Source: a virus
Lineage: Duplodnaviria; Caudoviricetes
IMG/VR virus record: IMGVR_UViG_3300033064_000306
Span: 937 to 64,936 of that record
Reading direction: 5' to 3' (one strand)
DNA: 64,000 nucleotides
The notes beneath the pieces were generated by a model that searched no databases, was not told the DNA's origin, and worked only from the letters and a program-made list of their open reading frames with translations. Position numbers and translations under genes: made by a program. Position 1 is the first letter of the stretch, and each line of letters begins with the position of its first letter. Shown piece by piece: positions 29,675 to 48,661 of the stretch.

Positions 29675-29761
29675 TCTTGTGCCTTTCTTAGTATTAAAGA
29701 ATAAGTAATCCAAGTAGCCAGCCACAAGCAAAGCCAGCAATAAATAAATAATATTCAGGTT

Positions 29762-30139
29762 TCATTTCTCTTGTGCCTTTTCTTCAATAGCCCATAATAT
29801 TTCGTTGCAAGCATCTATCCAACCATCTGCATAAGTATCTTCATAAGATTTACATGGTGGAACATCATCGCTTTGAAAGTCTTTGATAATCTTGATGGCT
29901 TCTGTTAGTGTCTTTGTTTTTAATTTTTCAATCTCTTCACGCATCGTACCAATTACATAATCTGCGTTATCTAATAAAGCATCTACCTCTGATTTTGATG
30001 GTTTATATGGATGGGTGTAGAGTGGCATGGTAATTCCCATGTTATCCACTTTATTTTCTGAAACGCAATCGGCTAAATACAATGCCTCATCTTTGAATCT
30101 ATCCAAGTTAATCCACGCTACTGGTTCATTTGCGTTCAT
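29762..30139 (-). CDS. Small hypothetical protein (MNANE...KAQEK)
   Basis: ATGA overlap with the methyltransferase stop. Confidence 0.55.
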   Translation of the reverse strand: MNANEPVAWINLDRFKDEALYLADCVSENKVDNMGITMPLYTHPYKPSKSEVDALLDNADYVIGTMREEIEKLKTKTLTEAIKIIKDFQSDDVPPCKSYEDTYADGWIDACNEILWAIEEKAQEK

Positions 30140-34941: not shown

Positions 34942-35255
34942 CTATAGGGTTTATACCTATTTTGAATCATAAGTAACTGTTGAGCCTTCAGCCCCTTTAT
35001 TGTTGTTGAACCAAACGGATTGTCCAAGTCATCTTCTTTTTCGTCGGCGGTCATGGTTTGCATAACGGCTAAAGTAAACTCTTCCTTGCGAATTTCTTTT
35101 ATACGGTCAAAAATCATACCTTTTTCGGCTTCGGACATTGCATCACGAAAGTATTCTTTGTAGATAAACTTCCACTTATTATTGTCACCATAAAATTCTT
35201 CGGGGTGCGTAGCCATCCGAGCTAGCACAATTTCAACTCCTGAGTTCATTGGCAT
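34938..35255 (-). CDS. Hypothetical protein
   Basis: Coupled ORF upstream of the polymerase. Confidence 0.55.
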   Translation of the reverse strand: MPMNSGVEIVLARMATHPEEFYGDNNKWKFIYKEYFRDAMSEAEKGMIFDRIKEIRKEEFTLAVMQTMTADEKEDDLDNPFGSTTIKGLKAQQLLMIQNRYKPYR

Positions 35256-35282
35256 CCTTTTTTTTAGGAAACTGGTCCGATA

Positions 35283-35573
35283 TCAGCAACGGTCGTCCTC
35301 TAAATATTCTTTGAGTTTGTTTATATTTTCTTCGTTGATAACAAAAGTCTCGCCTCCTGCATCACGGATGCGTTTTAGTTCTCGTTCTTGGAGTGCGGTG
35401 GTCTTGCCTTTGATGGTCTTGCACTCAATCGCAATGAACAGGGAGTTGAGGCAACATATAATGTCAGGCACACCTGACTTACCAAAGCCATGCGTAGCTG
35501 GAAAAAAGTAGTACACATTGTGTAACTTCAATAGCTTAACAACTGCGGCTTTAACCTTAGCTTCGGGCTTCAT
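35283..35573 (-). CDS. VRR-NUC / Holliday-junction-resolvase-like nuclease
   Basis: PEAKV...GVPDII...IECK...TALQ. Confidence 0.8.
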   Translation of the reverse strand: MKPEAKVKAAVVKLLKLHNVYYFFPATHGFGKSGVPDIICCLNSLFIAIECKTIKGKTTALQERELKRIRDAGGETFVINEENINKLKEYLEDDRC

Positions 35574-35607
35574 TTACTTTCCTTATGTTACTGCTTATTA
35601 TTGACAC

Positions 35608-35635
35608 AGTATAGTCCTTAGCCAGACGAAAGCAA
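35608..35635 (-). promoter_or_regulatory. Sigma70-like promoter for the replication operon
   Basis: TTGCTT-N16-TATACT, downstream of the early terminator. Confidence 0.5.
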
Positions 35636-35710
35636 GTGATTCTGGAAAATTATTTTATAGGGATAAACACCTAGAAAAGACAAAGTGTCACTATGCCACT
35701 TTGTCCCAAT

Positions 35711-35732
35711 AAAAAAGCCACCCGAAGGTGGC
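35711..35732 (-). terminator. Intrinsic terminator ending the early operon
   Basis: GCCACC-TTCG-GGTGGC-TTTTTT. Confidence 0.88.
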
Positions 35733-35744
35733 TTAGTAGGCTAA

Positions 35745-35814
35745 AGTATATTCCGCATCCTACTTGCGTTAGAGGGGAGATTGTGGCTTTCGCCTCACCT
35801 ACCTAACATATACT
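35745..35814 (-). ncRNA. Candidate structured RNA
   Basis: Nested helices and a GGC-GAAA-GCC tetraloop in a non-coding gap. Confidence 0.35.
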
Positions 35815-35848
35815 AGGCTTTAGTAAGTGCAATCAGGAAAACATAATT

Positions 35849-36760
35849 CTACTGCGTAGTGGTATCTCTTTCTACTATGAATAACATATCACCTCTAAAC
35901 TTGCAACCTAGATTAGAGTAAGGCTCATCTTGGTTTATTACCTTGAACATTGCCACCTTTTCACGAATAGCTTGAGGCACTTCCTCCAACTCTTTATACT
36001 TCTTAAGCGTCTGAGTAGCGTAACTATATATAGCTAGACTACCATTACTAAATATAGATACCGCATAGCCTTTGCCTGACTTCTTATGCTCTACTAAGTC
36101 ATTGGCTTCGTCCCATTCGTTGCATAGCTTCTCATGCTTCTCCAACTTACTAGCTACTGACTGAGGAATAGCGGGCAATGTAACTGTATCTATGCCTGCT
36201 TTTCTAGCCTTGTATGCACTAAGCACGTACCCCATGACTTCGTCTTCTGTGTTTACATCATATTTAATATACGAGTAGGCTTGCCTTTCCAAGTCCCTAA
36301 GTTGGTTATCGACCTGACCCTTGATTAAGCCAATGAGTTCTTCGTTCTGCCTGTTAACAAACACCTTCTTAACTGTGCGTAGTGCCACCTTGATGTTCTT
36401 GGTGTAAGTGCTTTCAGGATTACCTCGTTCTTTGCTAATGCGAAAACTCTCTACACCATATACCCATTCTTTATTACCACGAGAGTATCTCTCAGTAACA
36501 GACAAGCCACCCAAGCGTTCGCCGTCTTGATAGACATTAACATAATAAATCTCGGCTTTGTTGTTTCGCTCCATCTTAGTCCCACCCTTGCCATCATCAA
36601 CCTCTTCATAGTTATGGTTGATGCTGACGGAATTCTCTTCTGCCTTGAACTCGCATAGTGGTTTTAGTAATGACACTTGTTCTACAAAACTTTCAAGGTC
36701 GTTTCTAAATGGTGCGTTGCGATACTCTGCCTTGACACCGCTTTTGTCTATGTTAACCAT
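35849..36760 (-). CDS. Early hypothetical protein
   Basis: 303 aa; AGGAGG RBS. Confidence 0.7.
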   Translation of the reverse strand: MVNIDKSGVKAEYRNAPFRNDLESFVEQVSLLKPLCEFKAEENSVSINHNYEEVDDGKGGTKMERNNKAEIYYVNVYQDGERLGGLSVTERYSRGNKEWVYGVESFRISKERGNPESTYTKNIKVALRTVKKVFVNRQNEELIGLIKGQVDNQLRDLERQAYSYIKYDVNTEDEVMGYVLSAYKARKAGIDTVTLPAIPQSVASKLEKHEKLCNEWDEANDLVEHKKSGKGYAVSIFSNGSLAIYSYATQTLKKYKELEEVPQAIREKVAMFKVINQDEPYSNLGCKFRGDMLFIVERDTTTQ

Positions 36761-36769
36761 ACTTCCTCC

Positions 36770-37639
36770 TTAGAAATCAAACTTACTTAAGATAGCGTCG
36801 ACCTTCATCTTGACCGCTTCTCTAGCATTACTGTTATCACGCAGACTGTCGAGGTCGTGGTGGGCGATAGCTGACTGCAAGTCTTTGCGTGCTTGCTCTA
36901 GCTTGGGGTCTTGTGTGATGTTCAAGTGCTTCAGCATATCCACTAACTCCACGCTATTCTCTACTAAGGAGTCACGGAATATTTTTCGTGAGCCGTCGGC
37001 ATTGTCAGTCAACCTTTCGCTTGTGCGGGTTAAGCACTCATGCAATCTACTCCATGCTTCACGCATAGCGTTGTTCAACCTATCTTCGTAGGCGGTGTTG
37101 CAGTTAGCCATAATCTCCGCTTTGGATTCCTCGTTGATGTCGATACGGAAGTCGCCTGCGGTGGGGACAGGAAAGAAACTATATGTGAACTTGAACTTCT
37201 TCTTTAAGCTGTCCTCATTCGGGTATTCGTTTCTGTCGAATAGGTCACCAAGTTGAAAGGCAGCCGCACTTACTAGAGTTGGATACGACTCGATGAACTT
37301 ATCTACTAATGCGTCGTAGTTCTCCTCTAACTTGTTGAGTTGCTCCTTGTAGTTCATGAAGTTAGACATGGGCAACAAGCGTGAGCCGTTGTCAGTCCAC
37401 GGCAGGGTTTGAGAAAGATGCCATGCTCTAGCATTAGCCGCATACTTGACGAGGTTCTCTAACACCCCTGTGCCTGCCATCAGGTTCTTGTTAGCATTGA
37501 CCACCTTGGTCTTTGTCCCCTTGGCTAAGTCAACCTCTGTTGATACACGCTTATCCAATTTCCTAGCAGTCCATGTGCTGATGGATAGCTCGACGAGCAT
37601 CGCTGATGATGCAATTGAAATACTGTTATTCAGTTCCAT
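36770..37639 (-). CDS. Early protein, possibly DUF3150-like
   Basis: Start MELNN after a GAGGA RBS; WTARKLDK...TLPW...F.PVP pattern; next to AAA/VWA genes. Confidence 0.55.
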   Translation of the reverse strand: MELNNSISIASSAMLVELSISTWTARKLDKRVSTEVDLAKGTKTKVVNANKNLMAGTGVLENLVKYAANARAWHLSQTLPWTDNGSRLLPMSNFMNYKEQLNKLEENYDALVDKFIESYPTLVSAAAFQLGDLFDRNEYPNEDSLKKKFKFTYSFFPVPTAGDFRIDINEESKAEIMANCNTAYEDRLNNAMREAWSRLHECLTRTSERLTDNADGSRKIFRDSLVENSVELVDMLKHLNITQDPKLEQARKDLQSAIAHHDLDSLRDNSNAREAVKMKVDAILSKFDF

Positions 37640-37904
37640 TTGATTCCTCTTCGGTTGGTTGGGACATAGTGTCACCTTGACACTTTGTCCGTTGGTTGTA
37701 AAACTTTACAAGGTGTTGGATTGCTTGAGAATAGGTTAAGTTAAAGCCCATCTCTACACCCATCTTGTTTTTAATAGTGACTAACATCTCAACTGTTTCG
37801 GGGTTGAGACTAATGTTAATCTTGCCATCTTTCACTCTGCCTTTCGGCACTTTAGTTTTGATAGGGTCGTTCATACCGCCGTATCCTTCTTCGATTATTT
37901 GCAT
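37626..37904 (-). CDS. Possible ribbon-helix-helix DNA-binding protein
   Basis: AAGGAG RBS; KINISLNPETVEML...TYSQAIQHLV. Confidence 0.45.
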   Translation of the reverse strand: MQIIEEGYGGMNDPIKTKVPKGRVKDGKINISLNPETVEMLVTIKNKMGVEMGFNLTYSQAIQHLVKFYNQRTKCQGDTMSQPTEEESNGTE

Positions 37905-37914
37905 TTGATTCTCC

Positions 37915-39153
37915 TTATTCGACATGAACAATTTTGCCAACGGGTGCGTCAGCACTACTAAAGCGACTATTACCTTTGATGCACCACAACACAGGAGCAG
38001 ATAGAGTCCAATTACTTGGGTCTTGTTGCCCGATGTATCCGTCGGTCAGCATGATTAAACACTCAGGCTTGATGTTGTGCTTCTCCATAAACTTAGGCAC
38101 GCAAGCTGGCTCAGTCCCCCCACCACCCGCAGGCTTTGTGCTTTCGGTTAACCCTGAAAGTTCGTTCTCCATATATGTTTCTCTAGAAGCAACATGGGTA
38201 TCCCAATACAGTAGGTCAATGACTTCGGGTGATACCTCTTCGCAGATAGACTTAACCTCTGATAAGAATTGATTTAGTTCTGCCGAACCAATCGAACCCG
38301 ATGTGTCAATAGCGATTGCGATACCACCTACCTTTTCAGAATAGGATGAGGGCATAATTATATCGGCAGCAAGATAACGCTTATGCAGTCGTCGCCATGT
38401 AGATTGGTCTTTACCTTGCGTCATCGACTTAACGAAATCACGCAACGCTTCCTTCCAATCAATCTTGGGAACAAGCATATCTCCAATCTCACGACTGACA
38501 TTACCACCTAGCTTACCTACAAGAATAGAACCCTGACGCAACGCTGACTCGACTTCTTTAGCGATAGCTTCTTTCTCTTCGGTAGACATTTCTTTAGCAC
38601 CATCCCAATCATGCTCGTCAAAACCTTTGCCTTCACCTTTGATTGGATTATCACCATCACCACCACTACCACCTCCACCGCCACCACCACCTTCTTCCTT
38701 CTCTTTCTCTAGCAGTAGAAAGATTTGGTGTGAGTCCATACCTCGATACTTCTCGTCGATTAGACCTAGCACATTACCTAGTTCGTCGGTAGGCATTTCA
38801 GTATCGTTTTCATGAGGGTCATAGTCACGGATTTGCAGGTTAATCACATAATCGCAAGCCATATTAGCCAACTGTGCGTTCTTCTTATGCAACTTCTCCC
38901 ACACTACCAAGTGACGATAAGCCTTGTGCATATTCTCGTGCAAGATAAGGAAAGCCAACTGCTTGTCGTTCAAGCTGTCTACAAACTTACGACCATACCG
39001 AACATCAAGTCCGTTGGTGCAAGCAGTAGCTACATTGTCCTCGACTGTGACTTTGCCAATCATGAACAAGCCTGAGAACAAGCAATAGTTCTTGTGCTTC
39101 ATTAACTGCACATGACAACGCTCAATGCGTTGCTCTGCTGATAATCTACTCAT
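37915..39153 (-). CDS. Metallopeptidase-like + VWA domain protein (DUF2201 type)
   Basis: HENMH (HExxH); MIDAS DTSGS; GGGT; LTDGY. Confidence 0.85.
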   Translation of the reverse strand: MSRLSAEQRIERCHVQLMKHKNYCLFSGLFMIGKVTVEDNVATACTNGLDVRYGRKFVDSLNDKQLAFLILHENMHKAYRHLVVWEKLHKKNAQLANMACDYVINLQIRDYDPHENDTEMPTDELGNVLGLIDEKYRGMDSHQIFLLLEKEKEEGGGGGGGGSGGDGDNPIKGEGKGFDEHDWDGAKEMSTEEKEAIAKEVESALRQGSILVGKLGGNVSREIGDMLVPKIDWKEALRDFVKSMTQGKDQSTWRRLHKRYLAADIIMPSSYSEKVGGIAIAIDTSGSIGSAELNQFLSEVKSICEEVSPEVIDLLYWDTHVASRETYMENELSGLTESTKPAGGGGTEPACVPKFMEKHNIKPECLIMLTDGYIGQQDPSNWTLSAPVLWCIKGNSRFSSADAPVGKIVHVE

Positions 39154-39163
39154 ATAAATCTCC

Positions 39164-39394
39164 TTAGTTCCATCTTAGTTTTGGACAATCAGGGGCAGTG
39201 TTTCTACCCCTACGCACACATAGTGTGTCTGCAATTAAGTCTTTTAAGCCATGACGCATACAATCTAGTCGTCTGTCCATCTTGGCATAAAGGCTTTCAC
39301 GCAAATCACCATTGGTTCTACTAATACGCTTGACCTTGTGCAAACCCCTACGCTTCCACATACGCTCAAGTGCTACGCTTACTCGCTTAGTCAT
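39164..39394 (-). CDS. Small basic hypothetical protein
   Basis: Likely start MTKRVS with a GGGGGA RBS. Confidence 0.45.
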   Translation of the reverse strand: MTKRVSVALERMWKRRGLHKVKRISRTNGDLRESLYAKMDRRLDCMRHGLKDLIADTLCVRRGRNTAPDCPKLRWN

Positions 39395-39405
39395 ATATCC
39401 CCCTA

Positions 39406-40500
39406 TCAAAATAAATATTGGTGTTTGGTCATCCAATCAACAAAGGATTGGTGTGTAAGGAATAGCTTTTTCTTGTCGTCATCCTTCAAGCCTGTAAGAC
39501 AAAATACCGATTGCAACTCTGTCGGTGTCCGCTTGAGGTATTCAAAGAACTTGCCGATGGTTTGGCGGTCGATACGCTGAACTGCACTAAACGCAAGCAA
39601 GCACAATGCAGTCGGACTTGATGGGACAATGGCGGTGTTTGGGTCTTTGATAATTGACTCCCATGTCGGCAAACTATCCGCTACTTCTACGAATGACATC
39701 AAGTCACGAGCCGCTGGTGCTCCAATCGTGCCTTCTAGCGCACAAAGGGTTGCGTTGTCAGTTACCTTGTTGCGCCCATTAAGAATATTACTTGCTCTAG
39801 CAAGGGAACGAGGGGAAACAAAAGACTTCTGCGCTTCCTTTGGGTTGAAGATATATTTATTACCCTCTTGACTTGGCTCAAGATAAGATGCCAACGCTTG
39901 AGGTGTTTGCTTAATCCACGCAAGGACTTCGGGTGCGATGTTATTACGCAATGCCCAATGACCCCATGAGTTGTCGTCAACTGAACCATCAGGATTAAAG
40001 CCTGCGTGTGGTTTCTTAATATTAATTACGGATAAACGATTACGGGAATGGCTCATCATGTTATCGCCTACCCCGTCGGTGGTGTAGTTACCCGCCGTTA
40101 TCACTATCGTATCCTTGTGCAAGGGGATACCCATAATCATGCGTGGCTCGTTAAGCATTGGATGCAACATATTCTTAACTGATTGATGACCCTTAGTAAA
40201 CTCATCGCAAAAGATAACGAGTGGCTCTTTCAGATGAAAACCCCATTGTTCGTTGGGGTAAATCTTGGTGGTTTTGGTTTCGTGGTTGGGGATTGGGATA
40301 CCTAGTTCACCCAACTCTACATTTGGTACATCGATATAGATGCCTTTATAGCCAGTTCTTTCTACAATGTTCTTGAACATTGAGGTTTTGCCTACCCCTG
40401 GCTCACCCATAAGGTGAAAGGTTACACCAGCACCATGTGTTACTACGGAATCCTCTGCTTCTTTGAGGGTTACGCTACGATTTAATAAAACTTGAGACAT
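39406..40500 (-). CDS. MoxR-like AAA+ ATPase
   Basis: GEPGVGKT, FCDEF, TAGN, SPRS. Confidence 0.85.
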   Translation of the reverse strand: MSQVLLNRSVTLKEAEDSVVTHGAGVTFHLMGEPGVGKTSMFKNIVERTGYKGIYIDVPNVELGELGIPIPNHETKTTKIYPNEQWGFHLKEPLVIFCDEFTKGHQSVKNMLHPMLNEPRMIMGIPLHKDTIVITAGNYTTDGVGDNMMSHSRNRLSVINIKKPHAGFNPDGSVDDNSWGHWALRNNIAPEVLAWIKQTPQALASYLEPSQEGNKYIFNPKEAQKSFVSPRSLARASNILNGRNKVTDNATLCALEGTIGAPAARDLMSFVEVADSLPTWESIIKDPNTAIVPSSPTALCLLAFSAVQRIDRQTIGKFFEYLKRTPTELQSVFCLTGLKDDDKKKLFLTHQSFVDWMTKHQYLF

Positions 40501-40553
40501 ATTATATTTCCTTATTAGTTAGTTATTATTTGGGACAAAGTGTCACTATGACA

Positions 40554-41507
40554 CTATGTCCTTTGTTGCGAAAAATACTTCTTGTTATCGTCATGGAACA
40601 TAGACCCAACTTCCTGTTCTTCAACAGTAAATACTTGGTCACGATATTCATGCTTTAACACTTCACTAAAGAACCTCTTAAACCTAGCGGGTGTGCATTC
40701 AATCTTCTGCGACCGATAGGTAAACTCTCCACCACTACACGCTACATAGGTTGCGAGTTCATACAGAAGGGTCAAGTCCCCAGATTCGCTGAACTTATCC
40801 AATGCTAGAAAAAGCTTTGTTCGGTTCTCGATATCAGGGTTCTTCCTCTCCCAATTAACAAATGGTATGAGTGATGTATCTTTAAAGGTCAGACCATGAC
40901 TAGCTTCAGCCACCTCTATCCTCTCAATATACGGACTCATGCCTAGCATCGTCGCACCATAGTCAATAAATAACTTATACTTCTTGCGTAGTGCATTAAG
41001 TTCTTTGCGGTTGGCTTTATATCTTTTCTCTTTGACTACATTCTCGGCTACATACACTTCACCTTCTTTAACTAGCACGAGTCCGTTGTCCATCAAAAAG
41101 TTCTTGCCCGCCTTGTTGACAAAATACCATTTACCTTTGACCGAATCGATAGTCCCAAGCTGTGCTAACGAATAGGTAAAAAACTGTAACATCGATGGGT
41201 TATGCCAATGGGAGTTCCTTACTTTTATCTTGCCATCAGGAAAGAACTCGATATCGTTGTCACGGTAGAAAGAATACGAATAGGTATCGATGAATGTGCC
41301 GAGTGGGTTGTCCACGCCGCCCTCTACGCTTAACCTATTCTTGTAAATACGAAACCATGTATAGCGACGATTCTTGCCCAATGGTCTGCACTCAGGTGTC
41401 CGACCACGAATAGGGATTACCTTATCGTAGTAAGCCTTGACTTCCTCGTAGGTTGCCAAGGCAGGGATGCCTGCCGAGTTATATGGAGTGTACCCCCATC
41501 CCATCAT
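40554..41507 (-). CDS. Early hypothetical protein
   Basis: 317 aa; GGAGG RBS; stop codon lies inside a palindrome. Confidence 0.7.
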   Translation of the reverse strand: MMGWGYTPYNSAGIPALATYEEVKAYYDKVIPIRGRTPECRPLGKNRRYTWFRIYKNRLSVEGGVDNPLGTFIDTYSYSFYRDNDIEFFPDGKIKVRNSHWHNPSMLQFFTYSLAQLGTIDSVKGKWYFVNKAGKNFLMDNGLVLVKEGEVYVAENVVKEKRYKANRKELNALRKKYKLFIDYGATMLGMSPYIERIEVAEASHGLTFKDTSLIPFVNWERKNPDIENRTKLFLALDKFSESGDLTLLYELATYVACSGGEFTYRSQKIECTPARFKRFFSEVLKHEYRDQVFTVEEQEVGSMFHDDNKKYFSQQRT

Positions 41508-42226
41508 TTACCTCCAAACAATTTGGATTCGAGATAAGCTACTGTGGCACGCAAGTCCATGACTTCTTTCATTACTTCAGTCACTTCGCTAGTCACATTC
41601 CGTGTTCCGTAGGCTTTAGCTAGTGCGTCTTGCAATTCGCTAATCTGTTGTGCTTGCTTGCGAGCTTCGGTCTGCCACTCGACTACACGCTTCTCTAGAA
41701 ACTCAGCCGTATACAACGATGGTGGATTGTCAAACATATCAAACTGACGAGGGTCTTTGGCTACGGCTTTGCCCAATGACTTCGGATTGATAAACTTAGC
41801 TTTCTTACCACGATTAATCGGTGCAGGATTTTGCAAGATGCCACGCTTTTTAGCTTCTTCGCATGGGTAGAAACGAGTAATGCCTGACTGCGGATTAGTC
41901 TGTCTACCAATCAATCCACGAGAAACCCATCTACCTAGCTGAAGATTAACTAGCTTAACATTAGGTTCTTTGCAGTAGTTAGCTACGGCTTCTGCGGTGC
42001 GGTTGCCATTACTCAACGCACTCAAGATGCGGTCTTTCAATGGCTTGATGTGGTCAGGGTAGTTAAAGTTCACACCCTTCTGCTTACTTGATGCTTCAAC
42101 AGGCTGAACTTCCCTAGCTACCAGCTGACGAGGTGGGTAACGGAGTGACTCTATGTCCACTTGCGTTGGTTGATGATTTAACTGCTCTTTGAACAATCTT
42201 AATGCTTCTATGGCTTCGTTTTTCAT
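41504..42226 (-). CDS. Possible winged-helix protein with C-terminal coiled coil
   Basis: RILSALSNGNRTAEAVANY...VNLQLGRWVSRGLIGR. Confidence 0.5.
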   Translation of the reverse strand: MKNEAIEALRLFKEQLNHQPTQVDIESLRYPPRQLVAREVQPVEASSKQKGVNFNYPDHIKPLKDRILSALSNGNRTAEAVANYCKEPNVKLVNLQLGRWVSRGLIGRQTNPQSGITRFYPCEEAKKRGILQNPAPINRGKKAKFINPKSLGKAVAKDPRQFDMFDNPPSLYTAEFLEKRVVEWQTEARKQAQQISELQDALAKAYGTRNVTSEVTEVMKEVMDLRATVAYLESKLFGGK

Positions 42227-42285
42227 AATTGAAAATTTCCTATTTAAGTTGAATAACGGACTTAGTGTCACCATGACACTTTGTC

Positions 42286-43779
42286 CTACTTTGTAACCCA
42301 TAACACTAGTAATACAGGCACTATTGTTATGCCAATCACAACAGTCATGCCTTCCAACATTCCACGCATGAATTTAATCCCATACATGAAATCACTCTCG
42401 CACTTCCACAGTCCAGTTGCGTAGTCAGCATCTTTAAATGCTTCACTAGCACTCCGTGAGGTGCGACCAACATAGTGACGAACATCGCCAATGCCATCAA
42501 AGTTGTTATTACTGCGTAAGTCAAGGGCAATCACCGCAACCCCTGCTTTAATACTATTTAGCTTCTTCATTACTAATCTCCCGAAGTTGTGCTTCATGGT
42601 TCAACAACATTTCTTTGGTTTGCCACACCAACAGACGAGCATGGTCTTTGGTAATACCCTTTTGCAAGGCAAAGTCTAGGTTGCCTATCATGTTGTGAGT
42701 GTGAACTAACAAATCCGATATCGTCGGCTTTGGTTTAATCATATGTCCCCCTGTAATGCGGTTAGCTTGGCTTTCATGACGGCAAGCGTTGCTTCTGCTT
42801 CTATACAACGGAATATCTGCTCACCCTCTGCCGTCCCCTTGGTATGCTCAAGAACAGATTGAAGGTCAGCGATGTTCTTCAATAACTCGCTGATGCGTTG
42901 CCCTTTATACATTTCCCTACTCATACAAACTCCCTTATCCAATCGATATAAACTTCGTCAAAATAAAACCACCTAGCTTGTCGATTCCTATCAGGCACAT
43001 CAATAGGGTAATTAACTAGCAGAGCATGGCTGTCCCACCGAACCACCTTGTAGAACTCAGGCTTGTCAGGCTTGCGGTATAACTTAACTACCTTCATTTC
43101 CTTCTCCAAAAATCCTAGCATTAAAGCCCTCAAGAAAGCCATCAATAAAAGCATGACGAGCTTCGTTAATATAGGGTGCGTCTTTAGTGCCTACTTGCCC
43201 TGTGTGCGGGTCATACTCTTGCATCCAAATCCAACTGCGACTGACTGCAATTTCCATGATGGTTGCGGTCTTGTTTATGTTTTCGTAATCCTCTAATTTA
43301 CCCATCATGTTGTCCTCTTTGGGTTAGTAAAACGCAAATCGTCAGGGTTGTGAATATATTGGTAAGCACCTTTGGAATAAGGAATCTGAACCATGCTTGC
43401 TTTACGCTTGGACTTAGCTACGGCTATCTTGTCGCCACACTTCATACAAGTCAACGGCTTGGACTCGTTGATTAGAAACTGAGCACGCTTGCCGTTCACA
43501 TACACTTGGCAATCCTTGGCGGTGTTGGCTACGCAAAAGTAGCGGTGCGACTCGTGGCTCATATTACGGACTTGTGTATTCATATCGTATTCTCGTATAT
43601 AGGTTGATTGGGACATAGTGTCAGAGTGACACTTCGTCTTTGGTTTGGATACTAGCGAGGTTGATTGCTTCCATCGTTTCCTTGGCGAGTGCAAGGTTTT
43701 CTGCGGTTGGATACTTGAGGCAAAGCATGAATAGCTTTTGGAGTGTGCCTGCTACTTGTGCTTGTTCTTTACTTGTCAT
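42286..43779 (-). CDS. Run of seven small coupled early ORFs (42286-42570, 42554-42742, 42739-42924, 42921-43097, 43084-43308, 43305-43583 Cys-rich, 43621-43779)
   Basis: Overlapping stops/starts and RBS-like GGAG/GGGG/GAGG sequences; functions unknown. Confidence 0.55.
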
Positions 43780-43858
43780 ATAAATCTCCCTTGATTGGGA
43801 CAAAGTGGCATGATGACACTTTGTCGGTTGCATGTTGTAGGCGAATTCCCACTCTATT

Positions 43859-43887
43859 AGTATAACACATTTAGTGGTAAATGTCAA
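43859..43887 (-). promoter_or_regulatory. Near-consensus sigma70 early promoter
   Basis: TTGACA-N17-TATACT. Confidence 0.88.
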
Positions 43888-44041
43888 GGACTTGTCCTGT
43901 AGTTATAGTGTTGCTTGGCTTTATTGCGTGGCTTACGCATCGTGGAATTCCCCTAGTGCGTCGCCCCATCGAGCCAGTTCCCGACCTCAAAATAAAAAGA
44001 AAAAGGACAAAGTGTCAAGCTGACACAATGTCCTAGGCAAT

Positions 44042-44063
44042 AAAAAAGCCCACCTAAGTGGGC
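44042..44063 (-). terminator. Intrinsic terminator
   Basis: GCCCAC-TTAG-GTGGGC-TTTTTT. Confidence 0.85.
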
Positions 44064-44083
44064 TTAAAGGGTTAAGGGGTTAA

Positions 44084-44665
44084 TTACATACCTAGCAATT
44101 CTTGGTGAATACGAGTGAGTAAACTAAAATCCTCGCACTTACCCAAGCACTCACGAATCTCCTTGCGGATTGCGTTGAGTTGCTCCTTAATATCATTACC
44201 CGCCTCTTTTTGACGCAACTCCAACTCCTTGCCCAACTTCTTGGCTTCGTCAATACGCTTCAAAGTGGGTTGAGCCAAGAGGTGAGCCATCTCCGCTTGC
44301 AATTCCTCATCGGCTTTGTCTTCGAACACTTCACGCACTTTTGCCCTTTGCTCGGCTTTTTTCTTGGCTTGCGGGTCATCACTAACAGGGATAGTGATAG
44401 CAGATTCTTTACAAACACGAGACCACTTCGTTTTGATAGCATCTGCGGATTTGCCAGCTTGCTCAAGGGTTTCAACAAAGATAATGCGACCCATCGAGTA
44501 ACGAGCCCAAGACGGCTTAGCGCCCAATACACGAGCAATGGTTGAAATGGCTTCTACAACTGTTTCTTCGCCATCATTCATCGCTAAGGAAGCGGACACC
44601 AACTGGGCATCTTCTTGCTCGTTAAACTGCTCGAGCATTTCTGCGGTTTTGACTACTGATTTCAT
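44084..44665 (-). CDS. Early helical protein, paralog of 45238-45870
   Basis: Own promoter, GGAG RBS and terminator. Confidence 0.75.
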   Translation of the reverse strand: MKSVVKTAEMLEQFNEQEDAQLVSASLAMNDGEETVVEAISTIARVLGAKPSWARYSMGRIIFVETLEQAGKSADAIKTKWSRVCKESAITIPVSDDPQAKKKAEQRAKVREVFEDKADEELQAEMAHLLAQPTLKRIDEAKKLGKELELRQKEAGNDIKEQLNAIRKEIRECLGKCEDFSLLTRIHQELLGM

Positions 44666-44758
44666 AACAATCTCCATAGAGTGAGGTTTAGGGTTTGGGA
44701 CATTGTGTCACTCTGCCACTTTGTCCTTTGCTACATATGGGCGAATTCCCACTCTATT

Positions 44759-44787
44759 AGTATACCACCCTTGATGGGATTTGTCAA
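44759..44787 (-). promoter_or_regulatory. Near-consensus sigma70 early promoter
   Basis: TTGACA-N17-TATACT; shares a 25-bp identical block with the 43859 promoter. Confidence 0.88.
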
Positions 44788-44801
44788 GGGTTTGTCCCAT
44801 C

Positions 44802-45095
44802 TGTTCTAGATTATGGGGGTAATGTTCTGTAATGTTCTATATGGTCGGAACACTCTCTAGCCCTTGTTCTATATGGTTAAGAGGGCTATATAAGTATAAT
44901 GTTCTATTGTTCTATATATGTCCAAAACACTTTTTGAGTTTAAAACTTGCACCGAGTGGGGGGCTCTTTGCTCCTTGACTTTTTAAAAAATCAGAATGGA
45001 GATGTTGGAACATTTAGAACATTTAGAACAATATAGCTAAGTGCTTGATTACATTTGGTTTCTTCTGTTCTATTCGGTAGAACATTACAAGAACA
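44802..45095. repeat. Cluster of 13 TGTTCY/RGAACA hexamers (iteron-like) with an IHF consensus site at 45038-45050
   Basis: Direct reading; AATCAAGCACTTA on the - strand matches WATCAANNNNTTR. Confidence 0.7.
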
Positions 45096-45180
45096 AAGCA
45101 AGACATAGTGGCATGATGACACTTTGTCCATCGGGCTAGTGCGTCGCTTACAACCAGTTCCCTATTATTTTTAACTGGAC

Positions 45181-45209
45181 AAAAAAATCCCCTGGGGTTA
45201 GCCAGGGGA
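45181..45209 (-). terminator. Intrinsic terminator with a CCWGG in each stem arm
   Basis: TCCCCTGG-N6-CCAGGGGA-TTTTTTT. Confidence 0.85.
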
Positions 45210-45237
45210 ATGAAGTAATACTATGCCGACAGATTAA

Positions 45238-45870
45238 TTACAGTCCGGCTACCTGGTAATCATAATCATTAAATATTGCTAGAGCAGCATTTAATGTATC
45301 CTCTTCCAGGCAATTCTTAGCTGCCTTAGCCACTTCGGACTGTAATGCTTTAATGATTTCCATTCTATCTTTCAGCACCAGGGCACGTTTATCCTCAATA
45401 ACAGCAGCTACCTTAGCAGCCTTAGCCAGGTTAGATTTAGTAGCGTTAGCTGTAAGCATAGATACTTCAGCCTGGAGCTCTTCAAAACTGCGCTCCATTT
45501 GTACAGCCTTTTGGGTAGCAGCCTTAGCTCTCTGATCGGCTTTAGCCTGGCTGTCTTTAGCTTTACTAGCTGGTTTAGACAGGCCGTACATCTCTTCAAG
45601 CCTAGCTGTAAATCTTTTCCACATAGATTTAATAGTATCACTATCCAGGCTTACACCTTTTTTAGTAGCGTATGCTGTTTTAACTACCTGGCTACCTTCC
45701 GCCCAGGTATCATAGTCTGTTACATCAATACCATCAGCATCCTGGACGGTTACGTTCCTGGCAAACTGTTCGATAGCATCATCAGCATCTACTTCGGCTA
45801 CTGCAAACATCGTCCCGATATCCTGGAAGGATATGTTTAATTCTTCTGACAATTGGAAGTTATTTTCCAT
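45238..45870 (-). CDS. First early gene; helical protein encoded by CCWGG-saturated DNA
   Basis: 210 aa; AGGGGA RBS; monocistronic. Confidence 0.75.
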   Translation of the reverse strand: MENNFQLSEELNISFQDIGTMFAVAEVDADDAIEQFARNVTVQDADGIDVTDYDTWAEGSQVVKTAYATKKGVSLDSDTIKSMWKRFTARLEEMYGLSKPASKAKDSQAKADQRAKAATQKAVQMERSFEELQAEVSMLTANATKSNLAKAAKVAAVIEDKRALVLKDRMEIIKALQSEVAKAAKNCLEEDTLNAALAIFNDYDYQVAGL

Positions 45871-45928
45871 TTTAGTTCCCCTGTATTAGGTTAGTTATCC
45901 AGGCTGCACCTTGCTACCTGGTCATTAC

Positions 45929-45957
45929 ATTATACACCCGGACTGATAGTTATCCAG
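45929..45957 (-). promoter_or_regulatory. Candidate promoter with perfect -10 and weak -35 overlapping CCWGG
   Basis: CTGGAT-N17-TATAAT. Confidence 0.45.
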
Positions 45958-46497
45958 GATATATCTTACTGGACATGGGAGCTATATAGAATAAGGCGCA
46001 GCCGACGGGTATCAAATTCACCAGGTAGCTAACCCACCATACCCCACCCCCCAAGATACAGATTAGGAGTCCCAGCAATGCAATATACACAGTGTTTTAC
46101 ACGGTACATCACATCAAAAATATTTTTAATAAATTCATAACTTAAGTGATGAAAACAACCCATTCTCTAGCATTATTTGTTATGTACTTATATTCACCAC
46201 TTATGACTCATCGCACATATAATTTTAAAAAAAGTTTATTTGCTAGGTAATCCCGGCCATCTAACTACATCCTATTCTCTAGTAGGGGGTATGATTATTC
46301 TCCTGGTAAGACGTTGTTAATTAACTACAGTAAGGGTACCCCCCTCTTTTATTTTGGGACTCCCCCCCCGGGGGGTATAAAAAAATTTATAATATTTTTA
46401 CTTAGTCACGTGAGTCGTGCTGGGGTGGGCACGAAGATTTACCACCCCACTAAAAAATAATATATACTCCAGCCATACAAACCTCCACTAAGGCTGT

Positions 46498-47127
46498 ATG
46501 CAAATACCGGTCGAACCAAATCTCGACGCACCTATCCCAGCGGGGGCCTATCCTCAAAGAGGGGATACTTATGAGCAGCGACTTAAGGTTGCTGGGAATA
46601 CTGCGCTCCTACTAAATGAACTCGGTGTAGAAGACGATATTCCTACAGATGAAGAAATTGCCCAAGCAAAAGAAATGTTTGAGGCAATTAGACCTGCGGA
46701 CGACAAAACATCTAAGCCTACTAAAGAAGAAACAAAAGCTCTTAAAAAAACTGGGCTAGCGTTAACCCTAGGTGGGTACATTAGTGAGTACGAGAAGCAA
46801 GTAGTCGCTGATAAAGTCCAAGTTAGAACAATTGTGGTTAATAGGTTGATGGAAATTAGCCAGACGGATGACGACAAAGTGGCTTTAAAGGCCCTCGAGT
46901 TGCTTGGAAAAGCGTCGGACCTGTTTACTGAACGTTCTGAAATCACTATTACCCACAAAACTAGCGATGAACTTAAGGCTGCTATTAAGGAACGCATCAA
47001 ATTACTTATGGGTCAGCCTATGAAAGACATCCCAAGTGCTACGGAGAAGCGGCTAAACCAGCTAAACCACAACCAAATGGAAATAATAGACGTTACAGCC
47101 CTTGAAAAAATTGAAGATGACGACTAA
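46498..47127 (+). CDS. Putative terminase small subunit
   Basis: Immediately upstream of terL; ALKALELLGK...LFTE. Confidence 0.6.
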   Translation: MQIPVEPNLDAPIPAGAYPQRGDTYEQRLKVAGNTALLLNELGVEDDIPTDEEIAQAKEMFEAIRPADDKTSKPTKEETKALKKTGLALTLGGYISEYEKQVVADKVQVRTIVVNRLMEISQTDDDKVALKALELLGKASDLFTERSEITITHKTSDELKAAIKERIKLLMGQPMKDIPSATEKRLNQLNHNQMEIIDVTALEKIEDDD

Positions 47128-48661
47128 GTTAGACGAGCTATCCCCAGAAGAGCTGCAATATCTGCTTGATAACTTAGATAAACTGCCTCCAGCGCAGCTA
47201 AGAGCGCTTGATGTTGAGACTGAAGAGGCAATGGAGGTCAAGGACCGTGAGGATTGTCAAGAAAATTTTATGGATTTTGTACATAAAGTGTGGCCCAACT
47301 TTATTGATGGCGAACATCATCAAGAAATGGCCGCCGCATTTGAAAGGGTAGCCTGTGGAAAATGTAAAAGACTTATTATTAATATGCCTCCTCGCCATAC
47401 TAAGTCAGAATTTGCTTCTTATTTACTCCCAGCGTGGTTTTTGGGTAAGTTTCCTAAGAAGAAAATTATTGAGACCGCTCATACAGCGGAGCTTGCGGTT
47501 GGCTTTGGACGTAAAGTCCGTAACCTTGTGGATTCCGACGTATATCAGTCTATCTTCCCAGGAGTTGGACTACAGACTGACTCTAAAGCTGCTGGGCGGT
47601 GGGCAACAAACCAGGGGGGAGACTATTTTGCTATCGGTGTGGGAGGTGCGGTCACGGGTAAAGGTGCGGATATCCTCATTATTGATGATCCTCACTCGGA
47701 ACAAGAAGCAACCATAGCAGAAAACAACCCCGAGGTGTACGACAAAACGTACGAGTGGTACACATCTGGTCCTCGTCAGCGTCTACAGCCAGGCGGGGCA
47801 ATCATCATAGTTATGACTAGGTGGTCTAAGAAAGATTTGACTGGTCAAGTAGTTAAAGCTGCAGCCCAAAGGTCGGGTGAACAGTGGGAAGTCATTGAAT
47901 TTCCAGCAATTTTGCCTGACGGAGCCCCACTTTGGCCTGAGTTCTGGAAACTTGAGGAATTAGAAGCGCTTCATCAGGAATTGCCTAACGGTAAGTGGAT
48001 GGCGCAGTACATGCAACAACCAACATCTGATGTCAGTGCGATCATTAAGCGTGAATGGTGGAAAATGTGGGAAAACAATGACCCACCCATGTGTGAGTTC
48101 ACTATTCAGAGCTGGGATACGGCGTTTTTAAAGACACAACGGTCCGACTACTGTGCTTGTACAACGTGGGGAGTGTTCTATCAAGATAATGAGCGGGGGG
48201 TTATGGTGCCAAACATCATATTGCTCAACTCGTTCAAGCAACGCATGGAGTTTCCAGAGTTAAAAGCAAAAGCGTTTGAGCACTATAAAGACTGGGAACC
48301 AGATGCGCTGATTGTAGAGGCTAAAGCTTCAGGTGCTCCACTAGTGTTTGAGCTTAGGGCGATGGGCATCCCTGTACAAGAGTATGTGCCATCAAAAGGT
48401 AGCGATAAAATTGCCCGTTTGAACGCAGTTGCTGATATATTTGCATCTGGAAGAGTTTGGGTTCCTAATACACACTGGGCTGACGAGTTAGTTGAGGAAG
48501 TTGCATCGTTCCCATCAGGCGAACACGATGACTTAGTGGACTCAATGACTCAAGCTATGTTGCGGTTTAGGCGGGGTGGCTTTATTAATCTGGATAGCGA
48601 CGAACCAGATGAGCCGAAGTATTTTAAGTCGTATAGAAACGCAGGGTACTATAACGTATGA
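47117..48661 (+). CDS. terL: Terminase large subunit
   Basis: MPPRHTKS, LIIDDP, VMTRW, SWDTA, HDDLVD. Confidence 0.93.
   Translation: MTTKLDELSPEELQYLLDNLDKLPPAQLRALDVETEEAMEVKDREDCQENFMDFVHKVWPNFIDGEHHQEMAAAFERVACGKCKRLIINMPPRHTKSEFASYLLPAWFLGKFPKKKIIETAHTAELAVGFGRKVRNLVDSDVYQSIFPGVGLQTDSKAAGRWATNQGGDYFAIGVGGAVTGKGADILIIDDPHSEQEATIAENNPEVYDKTYEWYTSGPRQRLQPGGAIIIVMTRWSKKDLTGQVVKAAAQRSGEQWEVIEFPAILPDGAPLWPEFWKLEELEALHQELPNGKWMAQYMQQPTSDVSAIIKREWWKMWENNDPPMCEFTIQSWDTAFLKTQRSDYCACTTWGVFYQDNERGVMVPNIILLNSFKQRMEFPELKAKAFEHYKDWEPDALIVEAKASGAPLVFELRAMGIPVQEYVPSKGSDKIARLNAVADIFASGRVWVPNTHWADELVEEVASFPSGEHDDLVDSMTQAMLRFRRGGFINLDSDEPDEPKYFKSYRNAGYYNV

What the first reader, a model, noticed from the sequence alone, without database searches (positions are those of the whole stretch)
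45191..46025. 18 CCWGG (Dcm/EcoRII) sites in 835 bp, written in by synonymous codon choice
Seen: CCWGG at 45191, 45202, 45252, 45306, 45378, 45426, 45471, 45546, 45645, 45687, 45703, 45741, 45757, 45822, 45899, 45917, 45954 and 46021; under 2 expected at 1/512. Twelve are in the CDS via NNC-CAG-G, NNC-CTG-G, GCC-AGG or ACC-TGG, two form the terminator stem and four are upstream. The flanks differ, so this is not a tandem repeat. The adjacent 10 kb has one site and no phage DNA methyltransferase was seen. Known: P1 pac cleavage depends on clustered Dam sites, and EcoRII needs multiple sites. Inference: a methylation-timed packaging signal, a restriction decoy/sensor, or a protein-loading array overlaid on a gene.
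Basis: partly seen in the sequence, partly recalled or inferred. Interest (0 to 1): 0.9.

Follow-up and report, generated by a model that had tools for sequence, protein, structure and literature searches.

The report
Self-pairing five-letter motif saturating phage gene
One small gene of a freshwater phage has been rewritten, without changing its protein, to carry 18 copies of the self-pairing word CCWGG, and relatives do the same with this or other self-pairing words, which points to a function of the DNA or RNA itself at what looks like the end of the phage chromosome.

Summary
There are 18 CCWGG in window 45191-46025, against about 1 expected. Twelve of the 15 positions where synonymous codons allow the site are used, against 39 of 873 in 67 other ORFs. 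Six further sites lie in 202 non-coding bases. Codon bias and chance are excluded.

The array fills one apparent transcription unit: a conserved box, a 5' leader, a 210-aa gene of unknown family and a terminator. The unit stops 25 nt before an invariant 28-nt block. A ~10-kb zone almost free of restriction palindromes starts at that block.

Most orthologous loci in related phages lack CCWGG. They carry GCTGG/CCAGC arrays in the same place. Five loci carry CCWGG arrays; the four that could be placed on the protein tree need three changes of the label. Some of the five also carry GGCC or GCWGC.

All these motif sets are self-complementary. The sense RNA is predicted to be unusually stable: 37-46 kcal/mol better than shuffles, against at most 13 in controls.

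My best reading (0.4) is that the pentamer is a building block of a highly structured RNA. A host Dcm/EcoRII-type reader (0.22), biased repair, a terminase site array and a restriction decoy remain possible. No phage methyltransferase was found.

The parts
45191..46025 (.). Array of 18 CCWGG. Read on the gene's (-) strand it is 9 CCAGG and 9 CCTGG.
   Evidence: About 1 site is expected from base composition. P is about 1e-21 at the window's background rate.
45238..45870 (-). 210-aa gene of unknown family carrying 12 of the sites. The predicted protein is all-helical. A paralog lies at 44084-44677.
   Evidence: ORF. No PHROG, Pfam or PDB sequence match. AF2 mean pLDDT 80, no PDB fold match at E <= 0.001. 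52 close homologs and 138 representative clusters. 12 of 15 possible sites used.
45188..45209 (-). Intrinsic terminator. Its stem (CCCCTGG / CCAGGGG) is made of two CCWGG copies and is followed by a run of T.
   Evidence: Orthologs keep the hairpin but build it from their own motif.
45871..46076 (-). Putative 5' leader with 4 sites (45899, 45917, 45954, 46021).
   Evidence: The leader's extent is inferred from the conserved box. It has not been mapped.
46084..46093 (-). Conserved box ACTGTGTATA (A[CT]TGTGTA[CT]A in relatives). It resembles a promoter and marks the upstream limit of the array.
   Evidence: Found in 19 of 23 loci examined. Site density is 9-20 per kb downstream of it and 0-6 per kb upstream.
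45135..45162 (-). Invariant block GGGAACTGGTTGTAAGCGACGCACnAGC. It is a candidate genome end, cos/pac cut site or key control site. The array ends 25 nt before it.
   Evidence: invariant in 7 of 7 aligned loci. The 24-nt core is exact in 25 of 48 loci held and in 13 IMG/VR contigs. Coordinates.
35000..45138 (.). Early zone almost free of restriction palindromes, starting at the block.
   Evidence: Observed counts: ACGT 1, GATC 0, GTAC 4, CCGG 0, GGCC 0, GCGC 4, CGCG 0. Expected: 23-38 each. CCWGG occurs once. The same zone is seen in G001 and G002.
44802..45084 (.). Nine TGTTCTA/TAGAACA copies (iteron- or operator-like) between the block and the paralog.
   Evidence: The GAACA cluster is conserved in 8 of 10 loci examined.
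45102..45129 (.). 28-nt element, inverted partner of 44698-44725. A 22-nt core recurs 6 times in the leftward operon.
44084..44677 (-). 197-aa paralog of the array gene. It is the first gene of the palindrome-free zone and carries 0 CCWGG (0 of 14 possible positions).
46498..47127 (+). Putative small terminase, named by position only, transcribed away from the array.
   Evidence: It has no family match.
47102..48661 (+). Large terminase.
   Evidence: phrog_38, E 7e-105. tblastn relatives.

Best explanation
The CCWGG copies are under selection at the nucleic-acid level, and they fill one small transcription unit. The unit runs on the - strand from a conserved box (46084-46093) through a ~200-nt leader and the 210-aa gene to the terminator (45188-45209). 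It is the last unit before an invariant block, where a restriction-palindrome-free early zone begins.

I read the pentamer as a self-complementary building block of an exceptionally structured sense RNA. CCAGG pairs perfectly with CCUGG, and there are nine of each. Any new copy, created by a silent change of the NNC-CWG-G type, can therefore pair with the copies already present.

Relatives reach the same state with other self-complementary sets: GCUGG plus CCAGC in about equal numbers, GGCC, or GCWGC. On this reading the identity with the Dcm/EcoRII site is secondary.

Shown:
- selection on synonymous and non-coding positions;
- confinement of the sites between the box and the terminator;
- recurrence of CCWGG arrays in separate lineages, with individual sites turning over;
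- predicted RNA stability far beyond controls.

Inferred:
- that the unit is one RNA;
- that RNA rather than DNA is the level of selection;
- the purpose of the structure. My guess is a long-lived, tightly folded and slowly translated message that terminates reliably just before the genome end or packaging boundary.
For: (1) Selection. 12 of 15 possible sites are used against 39 of 873 elsewhere. 0 of 5000 synonymous permutations reach 12. There are 6 sites in 202 non-coding nt.

(2) Every enriched motif set is self-complementary.
- CCAGG:CCTGG on the sense strand is 9:9 in the window. It is 10:12, 8:11 and 8:7 in L002, L005 and L031.
- GCTGG:CCAGC is 11:7, 9:11 and 9:9 in L008, L034 and L003.
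- L031 has 17-18 GGCC sites in the array region, 13 of them outside the GGCCTGG overlap.
- The window and L002 have 7 and 10 GCWGC.

(3) Confinement. Density is 19.7 sites per kb between the box and the block, against 1.5 per kb upstream. The same pattern holds in 18 of the 19 loci where the box was found. The terminator stem is rebuilt from each lineage's own motif.

(4) Fold of the unit. MFE is -276.5 against -228.4 +/- 6.4 kcal/mol for shuffles, z -7.5. A second run gave -275.3 against -229.5. Seven orthologous units gave z from -1.6 to -6.2. Eight control segments of the same genome gave +0.7 to -2.4, with an excess of at most 13 kcal/mol.

(5) Strand asymmetry, which a pure double-stranded DNA signal does not predict. 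Excess stability, sense against antisense, is -45.8/-20.4 (window), -37.5/-15.1 (L002), -37.2/-12.8 (L005) and -37.7/-31.4 (L031).

(6) In the ensemble, motif bases pair with probability 0.86, against 0.59 for other bases. 57% of their pairing goes to other motif copies, which make up 11% of the bases.

(7) With all CCWGG kept fixed, the native CDS still folds better than synonymous permutations (-193.8 against -177.2 +/- 5.8; 0 of 35 as low). L008 and L031 behave likewise.

(8) No flank consensus and no helical phasing. The window and L002 share about 11 positions, and 5-6 have turned over on each side.

(9) No protein tracks the motif: 0 diagnostic columns in the array protein, in TerS and in TerL.
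Against: - The extra stability is partly a by-product of the motif itself, so cause and effect are not separated. Keeping the motif explains only about 7 of the 23 kcal/mol in the CDS.
- The motif-kept z of -2.9 overlaps the control range. Ten control genes gave +1.4 to -2.6, and 3 of the 10 had 0 of 25 permutations as low.
- In L008 sense and antisense are equally stabilised (-40.0 against -39.8).
- In the MFE only 8 of 18 copies pair motif-to-motif.
- The motif-motif helices of the window mostly involve sites that L002 lacks, so no specific fold is conserved.
- A consensus-fold test was uninformative, because control regions scored as extreme.
- No Rfam family matches.
- Known structured RNAs do not reuse one pentamer for their stems.
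- The promoter is only a conserved box. No transcript data were available.
- Recurrence on CCWGG, GGCC and GCWGC fits a host restriction-modification link as well. All three are classical restriction-modification words, and they are among the words purged from the adjacent early zone.
Confidence: 0.4

Rival explanations
1. The array is read as double-stranded DNA by a host enzyme of CCWGG specificity (Dcm/EcoRII class). Dense methylation or binding of the region next to the genome end and the terminase genes would then time or mark packaging, replication or end protection. Known parallels, recalled: the Dam sites in P1 pac and the GATC cluster of oriC. Lineages would change motif as hosts change.
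For: - The motif is exactly 5 bp, symmetric and without flank preference, as for restriction-modification enzymes.
- CCWGG arrays arose more than once: the label needs 3 changes on the protein tree, and starred branches force 3. A fifth CCWGG-type locus exists, L061/G002.
- The other words enriched in CCWGG-type lineages are also classical palindromes: GGCC (10 of 25 possible against 3 of 86 in neighbouring genes) and GCWGC.
- The same words are absent from the adjacent 10 kb.
- The array lies between terS/terL and the invariant block.
- A sugar-modification cassette co-occurs with CCWGG arrays: present in 2 of 2 CCWGG-type genomes and absent from 2 of 2 GCTGG-type records that span the place. 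This could reflect a shared host.
Against: - 40 of 43 orthologous loci have 0-1 CCWGG. Most use GCTGG/CCAGC, which is not palindromic and not depleted genome-wide (1.21 in the window's genome, 1.09 in G001).
- No C5, N4/N6 or Dam-type methyltransferase in G000 or G001, and no C5 type in G002.
- The host is unknown.
- CCWGG is not rarer outside the array in CCWGG-type genomes than in a GCTGG-type genome.
- A cluster of unprotected sites would be a liability if the host has the matching nuclease.
- Strand asymmetry of the fold is not predicted.
Confidence: 0.22
2. The array is a by-product of biased repair. Very-short-patch-type repair or biased gene conversion would turn near-cognate words into the host's methylation word in a region that often forms heteroduplex, for example a recombinogenic genome end or a highly transcribed unit.
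For: - The sites turn over and have no positional conservation.
- The enriched palindromes are typical C5-methyltransferase targets. That such enzymes often travel with Vsr-like nucleases is recalled, not tested.
- The array abuts a probable genome end.
- The array gene is the fastest-evolving gene of its neighbourhood: 46-58% identity where TerL is 82-91% in the same eight loci.
Against: - The rest of the genome is depleted in CCWGG, not enriched (ratio 0.44).
- CTWGG/CCWAG words are at expectation (1.01).
- Use of 80% of the possible sites, plus a terminator stem rebuilt by paired changes on both arms, looks like selection.
- The GCTGG/CCAGC arrays have no known repair system behind them.
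Confidence: 0.1
3. The array is a multi-site recognition region for the phage's own terminase, in the manner of lambda cosB or a pac site (recalled). It would lie next to the cut site, here the invariant block.
For: - Its position between the block and terS/terL, with synteny conserved in the ten long loci compared (the two short ones held only the array gene).
- The sites occur in both orientations.
- The array is confined to the 0.9-1.3 kb next to the block.
Against: - 0 diagnostic columns in TerS and in TerL between 3 CCWGG-type and 7 GCTGG-type phages.
- TerS of L031 is no closer to the window's than GCTGG-type TerS are (67% against 66-72%).
- A bare 5-mer without flanks or phasing is unlike the terminase sites I recall.
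- No contig ends at the block.
Confidence: 0.08
4. The array is a restriction decoy or sensor: a dispensable stretch loaded with sites that soaks up or reports host nuclease activity.
For: - The genome shows intense restriction pressure: CGCG 0 against 87 expected, GGCC at 0.34, and a 10-kb palindrome-free zone.
- The phage encodes a 2072-aa polyvalent protein with a DarB-like PHROG match.
- The leading-region logic is documented for other phages (PMC12455610, abstract read).
Against: - The array lies outside the palindrome-free zone and is not itself free of other palindromes. By the avoidance pattern it is probably not in the first-entering DNA.
- Cutting there would expose an end next to the terminase genes.
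- Most relatives use a word that is not avoided elsewhere.
Confidence: 0.07
5. The count comes from chance, general codon bias, or recent acquisition of the gene from a CCWGG-rich donor.
For: CTG, CAG and C-ending codons are needed for the main frame.
Against: - 0 of 5000 within-gene synonymous permutations reach 12. The expectation from genome codon usage is 0.72.
- 6 sites lie in non-coding DNA.
- GC content is ordinary at 0.42-0.45.
- The gene is syntenic and conserved in relatives.
- Arrays recur in separate lineages.
Confidence: 0.01

Closest known systems
Phage P1 pac site, a cluster of Dam (GATC-containing) hexamers needed methylated for cleavage (recalled; no paper read here)
   Same: A short methyltransferase-type palindrome is repeated many times in a small region tied to the terminase genes, and it overlaps coding sequence.
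   Different: As I recall, P1 has 7 sites in about 160 bp flanking the cut and encodes its own Dam. Here there are 18 sites over 835 bp with no phage methyltransferase. Most relatives use a non-palindromic word. Neither cleavage nor methylation was tested.
GATC clusters at oriC read by SeqA (recalled)
   Same: Selection acts on the density of a bare short palindrome, with turnover of individual sites, and there is an iteron-bearing region next door.
   Different: No reader for CCWGG of that kind is known to me. An origin function of the neighbouring GAACA cluster is only a guess.
Restriction-motif-free leading (first injected) regions of phages (PMC12455610, abstract read)
   Same: The neighbouring 10-kb zone without ACGT, GATC, CCGG, GGCC or CGCG fits this known pattern.
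   Different: The finding is the opposite: a local excess of such a word, placed directly at the boundary of the free zone.
Short repeat arrays just inside the ends of T7 DNA, and phi29 packaging RNA made from the genome end (both recalled)
   Same: Short-motif arrays, or a structured self-pairing RNA, encoded next to a genome end and linked to packaging.
   Different: The T7 repeats are non-coding heptamers. phi29 pRNA is a 174-nt non-coding RNA of protein-primed phages. Here the motif is laid over a conserved protein gene, and neither ends nor a packaging role are shown.
Non-translational selection on local codon usage (PMC8410138; search listing only)
   Same: A nucleotide motif is enriched inside a gene through synonymous choice.
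   Different: I did not read the paper. I know of no described case in which 80% of the possible sites of a pentamer are used in one phage gene.

Membership tests
Dcm/EcoRII-type target array (restriction-modification sites) | Exact CCWGG, symmetric, with no flank requirement | tested here: met
   18 of 18 sites are exact. No flank consensus.
Dcm/EcoRII-type target array (restriction-modification sites) | A methyltransferase or nuclease of that specificity in the phage or its host | tested here: inconclusive
   The phage has none for PF00145, PF01555 and PF02086. The host is unknown: the genome-contig scan found nothing and there are no tRNA genes.
Dcm/EcoRII-type target array (restriction-modification sites) | Sites actually methylated or cut | not testable with these tools
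P1-like methylation-dependent pac site | Site cluster flanking the terminase cut, in or beside terS | tested here: inconclusive
   The array is 470 nt from putative terS and 25 nt from the invariant block. The cut site is unknown.
P1-like methylation-dependent pac site | The motif is conserved with the terminase that reads it | tested here: not met
   The motif differs between lineages, with 0 diagnostic residues in TerS or TerL.
Tandem repeat or iteron array | Repeated units longer than the core, with conserved flanks or regular spacing | tested here: not met
   Flanks are random, spacing runs from 11 to 99 nt, and there is no phasing.
Chi-like recombination hotspot cluster | Orientation bias relative to the nearby DNA end | tested here: not met
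   Counts are 9:9 for CCAGG:CCTGG and 11:7, 9:11, 9:9 for GCTGG:CCAGC.
Intrinsic terminator (the two leftmost sites) | GC-rich hairpin followed by a T run on the transcribed strand | tested here: met
   8-bp stem with 6 GC pairs, a 6-nt loop and TTTTTTT. Conserved in 7 of 7 aligned loci.
Described structured RNA family (Rfam) | Match to a covariance model | tested here: not met
   Only two chance-level matches (E 0.6-0.7), both outside the array.
Conserved structured RNA (any) | Stability beyond composition | tested here: met
   z -7.5, with an excess of 46-48 kcal/mol. Controls reach at most 13.
Conserved structured RNA (any) | Conserved base pairs with covariation | tested here: inconclusive
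   Consensus fold z was -13 to -18, but three control regions gave -16 to -67, so the test has no power. The motif-motif pairs are not conserved between the window and L002.

The most novel reading that the evidence does not exclude
The unit encodes a 'sticky' protein-coding RNA. Its silent sites and leader are saturated with one self-complementary pentamer, so many copies can pair within and between molecules. This multivalent RNA would act in trans or in cis at the chromosome end, for example as a packaging or end-protecting scaffold (loosely like phi29 pRNA) or as a condensate-forming or decoy RNA. Which pentamer a lineage may use (CCWGG, GGCC, GCWGC or GCUGG/CCAGC) would be set by which words its hosts' restriction enzymes tolerate.
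Probability: 0.12. Interest if true: 0.9.

Novelty: new variant of a known kind. Interest (0 to 1): 0.66.

Why it matters
Selection on silent sites this strong and this local shows that a phage gene can carry a second, nucleic-acid-level message as demanding as its protein. Here 80% of the possible positions are used, and CCWGG arrays recur in separate lineages.

The array's position makes the phage group a good natural system for two questions: how restriction pressure shapes phage chromosomes by region, and what marks a chromosome end. The array ends 25 nt before an invariant block, and on the other side of that block 10 kb are purged of restriction palindromes.

If the RNA reading holds, it adds a way of building RNA structure from one reusable self-pairing word. 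If the methylation reading holds, it would be a P1-pac-like signal that uses the host's cytosine methylation.

Tried and rejected
- Near-identical DNA in cultured phages: none. tblastn of the array protein against cultured phages: none.
- A single-protein scan of IMG/VR found nothing. Scans with the alignment did.
- The genome-contig scan for a host clue found nothing. There are no tRNA genes.
- Protein function: no PHROG, Pfam or PDB sequence match. No fold match at E <= 0.001. Atlas leads all scored below 0.9. Ten distant family members have no PHROG.
- Helical phasing and extended flank consensus: none.
- Chi-like orientation bias: none.
- TerS, TerL, paralog and array-protein residues tracking motif type: 0, 0, 1 and 0 columns.
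- Planktothrix phage Pag-Yong1 as a cultured comparator: 69% GC, not comparable.
- Consensus RNA fold with column shuffles: z -13 and -18. I discarded this because three control regions gave -16 to -67.
- My early idea that the island concentrates exactly the word each phage avoids holds for CCWGG and GGCC only in the sense that the early zone lacks them. GCTGG/CCAGC is not avoided genome-wide. CCWGG is no rarer outside the array in CCWGG-type genomes than in a GCTGG-type genome.
- No contig ends at the invariant block, so that gives no support for a physical end there.
- Literature: seven searches turned up no description of a local excess of restriction-type words in a phage gene. Only PMC12455610 (abstract) and passages of PMC12753301 were read. 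Supplements were not consulted.
- Rows dropped. Searches used 36 of the 43 loci. L019 and L022-L026 hold partial genes, and L029 is the same contig as L008. Several remaining loci are the same or near-identical phages seen in two collections (for example L003/L004, L013/L037, L015/L038/L039, L012/L036). The 37 proteins collapse to 31 distinct sequences.
Full report
**1. The observation**

All 18 CCWGG coordinates are exact. The window is a nearly whole 64,936-bp phage genome whose contig ends overlap by about 71 nt. It holds 58 sites in all, against 92.2 +/- 9.6 in dinucleotide shuffles. The genome is therefore depleted overall, and the 835 bp hold a third of all sites.

Base composition predicts 1.0 site in the region. 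The background rate of the rest of the window predicts 0.53 (P about 1e-21).

The gene at 45238-45870 on the - strand (210 aa) carries 12 sites. Ten are in the frame NNC-CWG-G. Two sites form the stem of an intrinsic terminator and four lie upstream of the start codon.

The codon test is decisive:
- 12 of 15 positions where synonymous codons allow the word are used, against 39 of 873 in 67 other ORFs.
- Within-gene synonymous permutations give 2.79 +/- 1.33 sites, and 0 of 5000 reach 12.
- Genome codon usage gives 0.72.

The 6 sites in 202 non-coding bases are an independent signal (P 5e-9). There is no flank consensus and no helical phasing.

**2. The setting**

TerL (phrog_38) is 46-58% identical to that of Pelagibacter phages HTVC027P/HTVC023P and some other podophages. 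No near relative is in the cultured-phage collection.

Genes diverge at about 46.2 kb:
- Rightward lie putative terS, terL, portal and structural genes.
- Leftward lie the array gene, a paralog (44084-44677), small early genes and then replication genes: DNA polymerase A, a PD-(D/E)XK nuclease, a primase-helicase, an SNF2 helicase and a MoxR-type ATPase with a VWA partner.

No DNA methyltransferase was found with three Pfam models in six frames.

Directly after the array's terminator the composition changes abruptly. Window 35,000-45,138 has ACGT 1, GATC 0, GTAC 4, CCGG 0, GGCC 0, GCGC 4 and CGCG 0, where 23-38 of each are expected. It has a single CCWGG. CGCG is absent from the whole genome, against 87 expected. 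This is the pattern known for first-injected regions (PMC12455610, abstract). The array gene itself is not free of those palindromes.

**3. Relatives**

The protein has 52 close homologs in metagenomes and 138 representative clusters. None is annotated. I fetched 43 loci, some of them redundant. Synteny is conserved in the ten long loci compared: portal, terL and terS on one side, the array gene and then the paralog on the other. The array gene is the most diverged member, at 46-58% identity where TerL is 82-91% in the same eight loci.

Only L002, L005 and L031 have many CCWGG in the gene +/-150 nt (16, 12 and 10). The other 40 loci have 0-1. Most of the others are instead enriched in GCTGG/CCAGC:
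- 10-15 copies against about 0.8 expected.
- Synonymous-shuffle z of about 4-5.7.
- Both orientations occur, also in the flanks and in the terminator stem.
- In G001, 6 of 15 possible positions are used, against 126 of 994 elsewhere (P 0.008).

L031 adds GGCC: 10 of 25 possible against 3 of 86, and 13 of its 18 GGCC lie outside the GGCCTGG overlap. The window and L002 add GCWGC, at 7 and 10 per 1.3 kb against 0-3 in the other 18 loci tabulated, 15 of which have 0-1.

A scan for the invariant block found a fifth CCWGG-type phage, L061/G002. It has 20-21 sites in the 1.2-1.7 kb before the block and 64 in the other 64.8 kb.

On a tree of 31 distinct array proteins the CCWGG label needs three changes, and starred branches force three. 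The window and L002 share about 11 positions, and 5-6 have turned over on each side.

**4. The boundary**

An alignment of seven loci shows this order after the array:
- in some phages, a small extra ORF;
- a terminator whose stem is spelled in the lineage's own word: CCCCTGG/CCAGGGG in the window, CCCCAGGG/CCTGGGG in L031, CCCCAGC/GCTGGGG in L027, and CCCAGCC/GGCTGGG or the close variant CCCAGCT/GGCTGGG in four others;
- an invariant block, GGGAACTGGTTGTAAGCGACGCACnAGC, at window 45135-45162 on the - strand;
- a 28-nt element, a cluster of GAACA repeats, a promoter-like site, and the paralog.

The 24-nt core of the block is exact in 25 of the 48 loci held. The palindrome-free zone starts exactly there in the window, L008/G001, L031, L034, L040, L032 and G002. 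It does not in L027 and L028.

Upstream, the array stops at a conserved box, A[CT]TGTGTA[CT]A (window 46084-46093). The box was found in 19 of 23 loci. Site density is 9-20 per kb between the box and the block, against 0-6 per kb above the box.

I infer, but could not test, that the block is at or near a genome end or packaging cut. On that view the early zone is packaged last and ejected first, and the array lies at the terminase-proximal end.

**5. What reads the motif**

No phage protein tracks the motif type. Diagnostic columns number 0 in the array protein, 0 in TerS, 0 in TerL and 1 in the paralog, comparing 3 CCWGG-type with 7 GCTGG-type phages.

GCTGG/CCAGC is not depleted genome-wide: the ratio is 1.21 in the window's genome and 1.09 in G001. 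It therefore does not look like a restriction target.

What every lineage shares is that its motif set is self-complementary and present in balanced numbers.

The window's unit folds at -276.5 kcal/mol against -228.4 +/- 6.4 for shuffles (z -7.5). A repeat gave -275.3 against -229.5. Seven orthologous units gave z -1.6 to -6.2, and eight control segments gave +0.7 to -2.4.

The excess is larger on the sense strand in four of five units:
- window: -45.8 against -20.4
- L002: -37.5 against -15.1
- L005: -37.2 against -12.8
- L031: -37.7 against -31.4
- L008: -40.0 against -39.8

Motif bases pair with probability 0.86, and 57% of that pairing is with other motif copies. In the single MFE structure only 8 of 18 copies do so.

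With the motif held fixed, the native CDS still beats synonymous permutations (z -2.9, 0 of 35 as low). Ten control genes reach z -2.6, so this point is weak. A consensus-fold test had no power. No Rfam family matches.

**6. Verdict**

The array is real, selected and recurrent. It belongs to a conserved architecture at a sharp chromosomal boundary.

I favour selection on the sense RNA for dense self-pairing, with CCWGG as the reusable stem word (0.4). This reading accounts for five things: the variety of motifs, their balance, their confinement to the unit, the terminator spelling and the strand asymmetry. It does not explain why one word is reused, or what the structure is for.

A host CCWGG-specific reader (0.22) explains the recurrence on classical restriction-modification words and the link with a sugar-modification cassette. 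That cassette (radical SAM/SPASM, three glycosyltransferases and an FkbM methyltransferase, window 26878-31709) is present in both CCWGG-type genomes and absent from both GCTGG-type records that span the place. This reading does not explain the GCTGG/CCAGC majority.

Biased repair (0.1), a terminase site array (0.08) and a restriction decoy (0.07) are less likely. Chance or codon bias is excluded.

Seven literature searches found no description of such an array.

Noticed in passing
window 35000-45138: A ~10-kb zone at the start of the leftward operon is almost free of ACGT, GATC, GTAC, CCGG, GGCC, GCGC, CGCG and CCWGG. AGCT, CATG, CTAG, TCGA and TGCA are not avoided. The edge at the invariant block is sharp and the far edge is gradual. 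The same zone is seen in G001 and G002.
   Followed up: yes
whole genome (G000), also G001 and G002: CGCG never occurs: 0 against 87 expected in G000, and 0 in G001 and G002. GGCC stands at 0.34-0.39 of expectation.
   Followed up: partly
window 45135-45162 (-): A 28-nt non-coding block is invariant across lineages whose flanking genes are only 50-70% identical. Its 24-nt core is exact in 25 of 48 loci held.
   Followed up: partly
window 44802-45084: Nine TGTTCTA/TAGAACA copies lie in 283 bp between the block and the paralog. The cluster is conserved as a GAACA cluster in 8 of 10 loci. It could be an origin or an operator array.
   Followed up: partly
window 35678, 40533, 42265, 43798, 43805, 45108; also 44698-44725: A 22-28-nt element (GGACA..GTG..CAC..GTCC type) recurs six times in the early region, against 0 expected. 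It flanks the iteron cluster as an inverted pair.
   Followed up: no
window 46026-46497: The intergenic region toward terS carries 8-13 C5/G5 tracts in all ten loci examined. It also holds a conserved CCCCCC-GGGGGG palindrome.
   Followed up: no
window 26878-31709: A cassette of a radical SAM/SPASM protein, three glycosyltransferase-like genes (GT2, GT10 fucosyltransferase-like and a below-cutoff Anp1-like match) and an FkbM-type methyltransferase. It is present in the two CCWGG-type genomes (window, G002) and absent from the two GCTGG-type records that span the place (G001, G003).
   Followed up: partly
window 13937-20155 (+): A 2072-aa virion-region protein with an LPD39 polyvalent-protein domain and a DarB-like antirestriction PHROG match. 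It holds 15 CCWGG, which is no more than its codons predict.
   Followed up: no
window 37915-40500 (-): A MoxR-type AAA ATPase and a DUF2201 metallopeptidase/VWA protein sit as a pair inside the palindrome-free zone. PHROGs labels the second an HNH endonuclease, while Pfam does not.
   Followed up: no
L008, L031, L032, L034, L040, L061: between the array gene and its terminator: These relatives have a small extra ORF of about 90 aa that the window lacks. The motif array runs through it as well.
   Followed up: no
genome ends (C1:1-71 and 64866-64936): The contig ends repeat about 71 nt with one mismatch, so the assembly closes on itself although the record is classed linear.
   Followed up: no
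L044 (Planktothrix phage Pag-Yong1) 5400-7600: This distant relative has 69% GC. It carries 9 copies of GTATGAC in its own divergent region upstream of the terminase genes.
   Followed up: no
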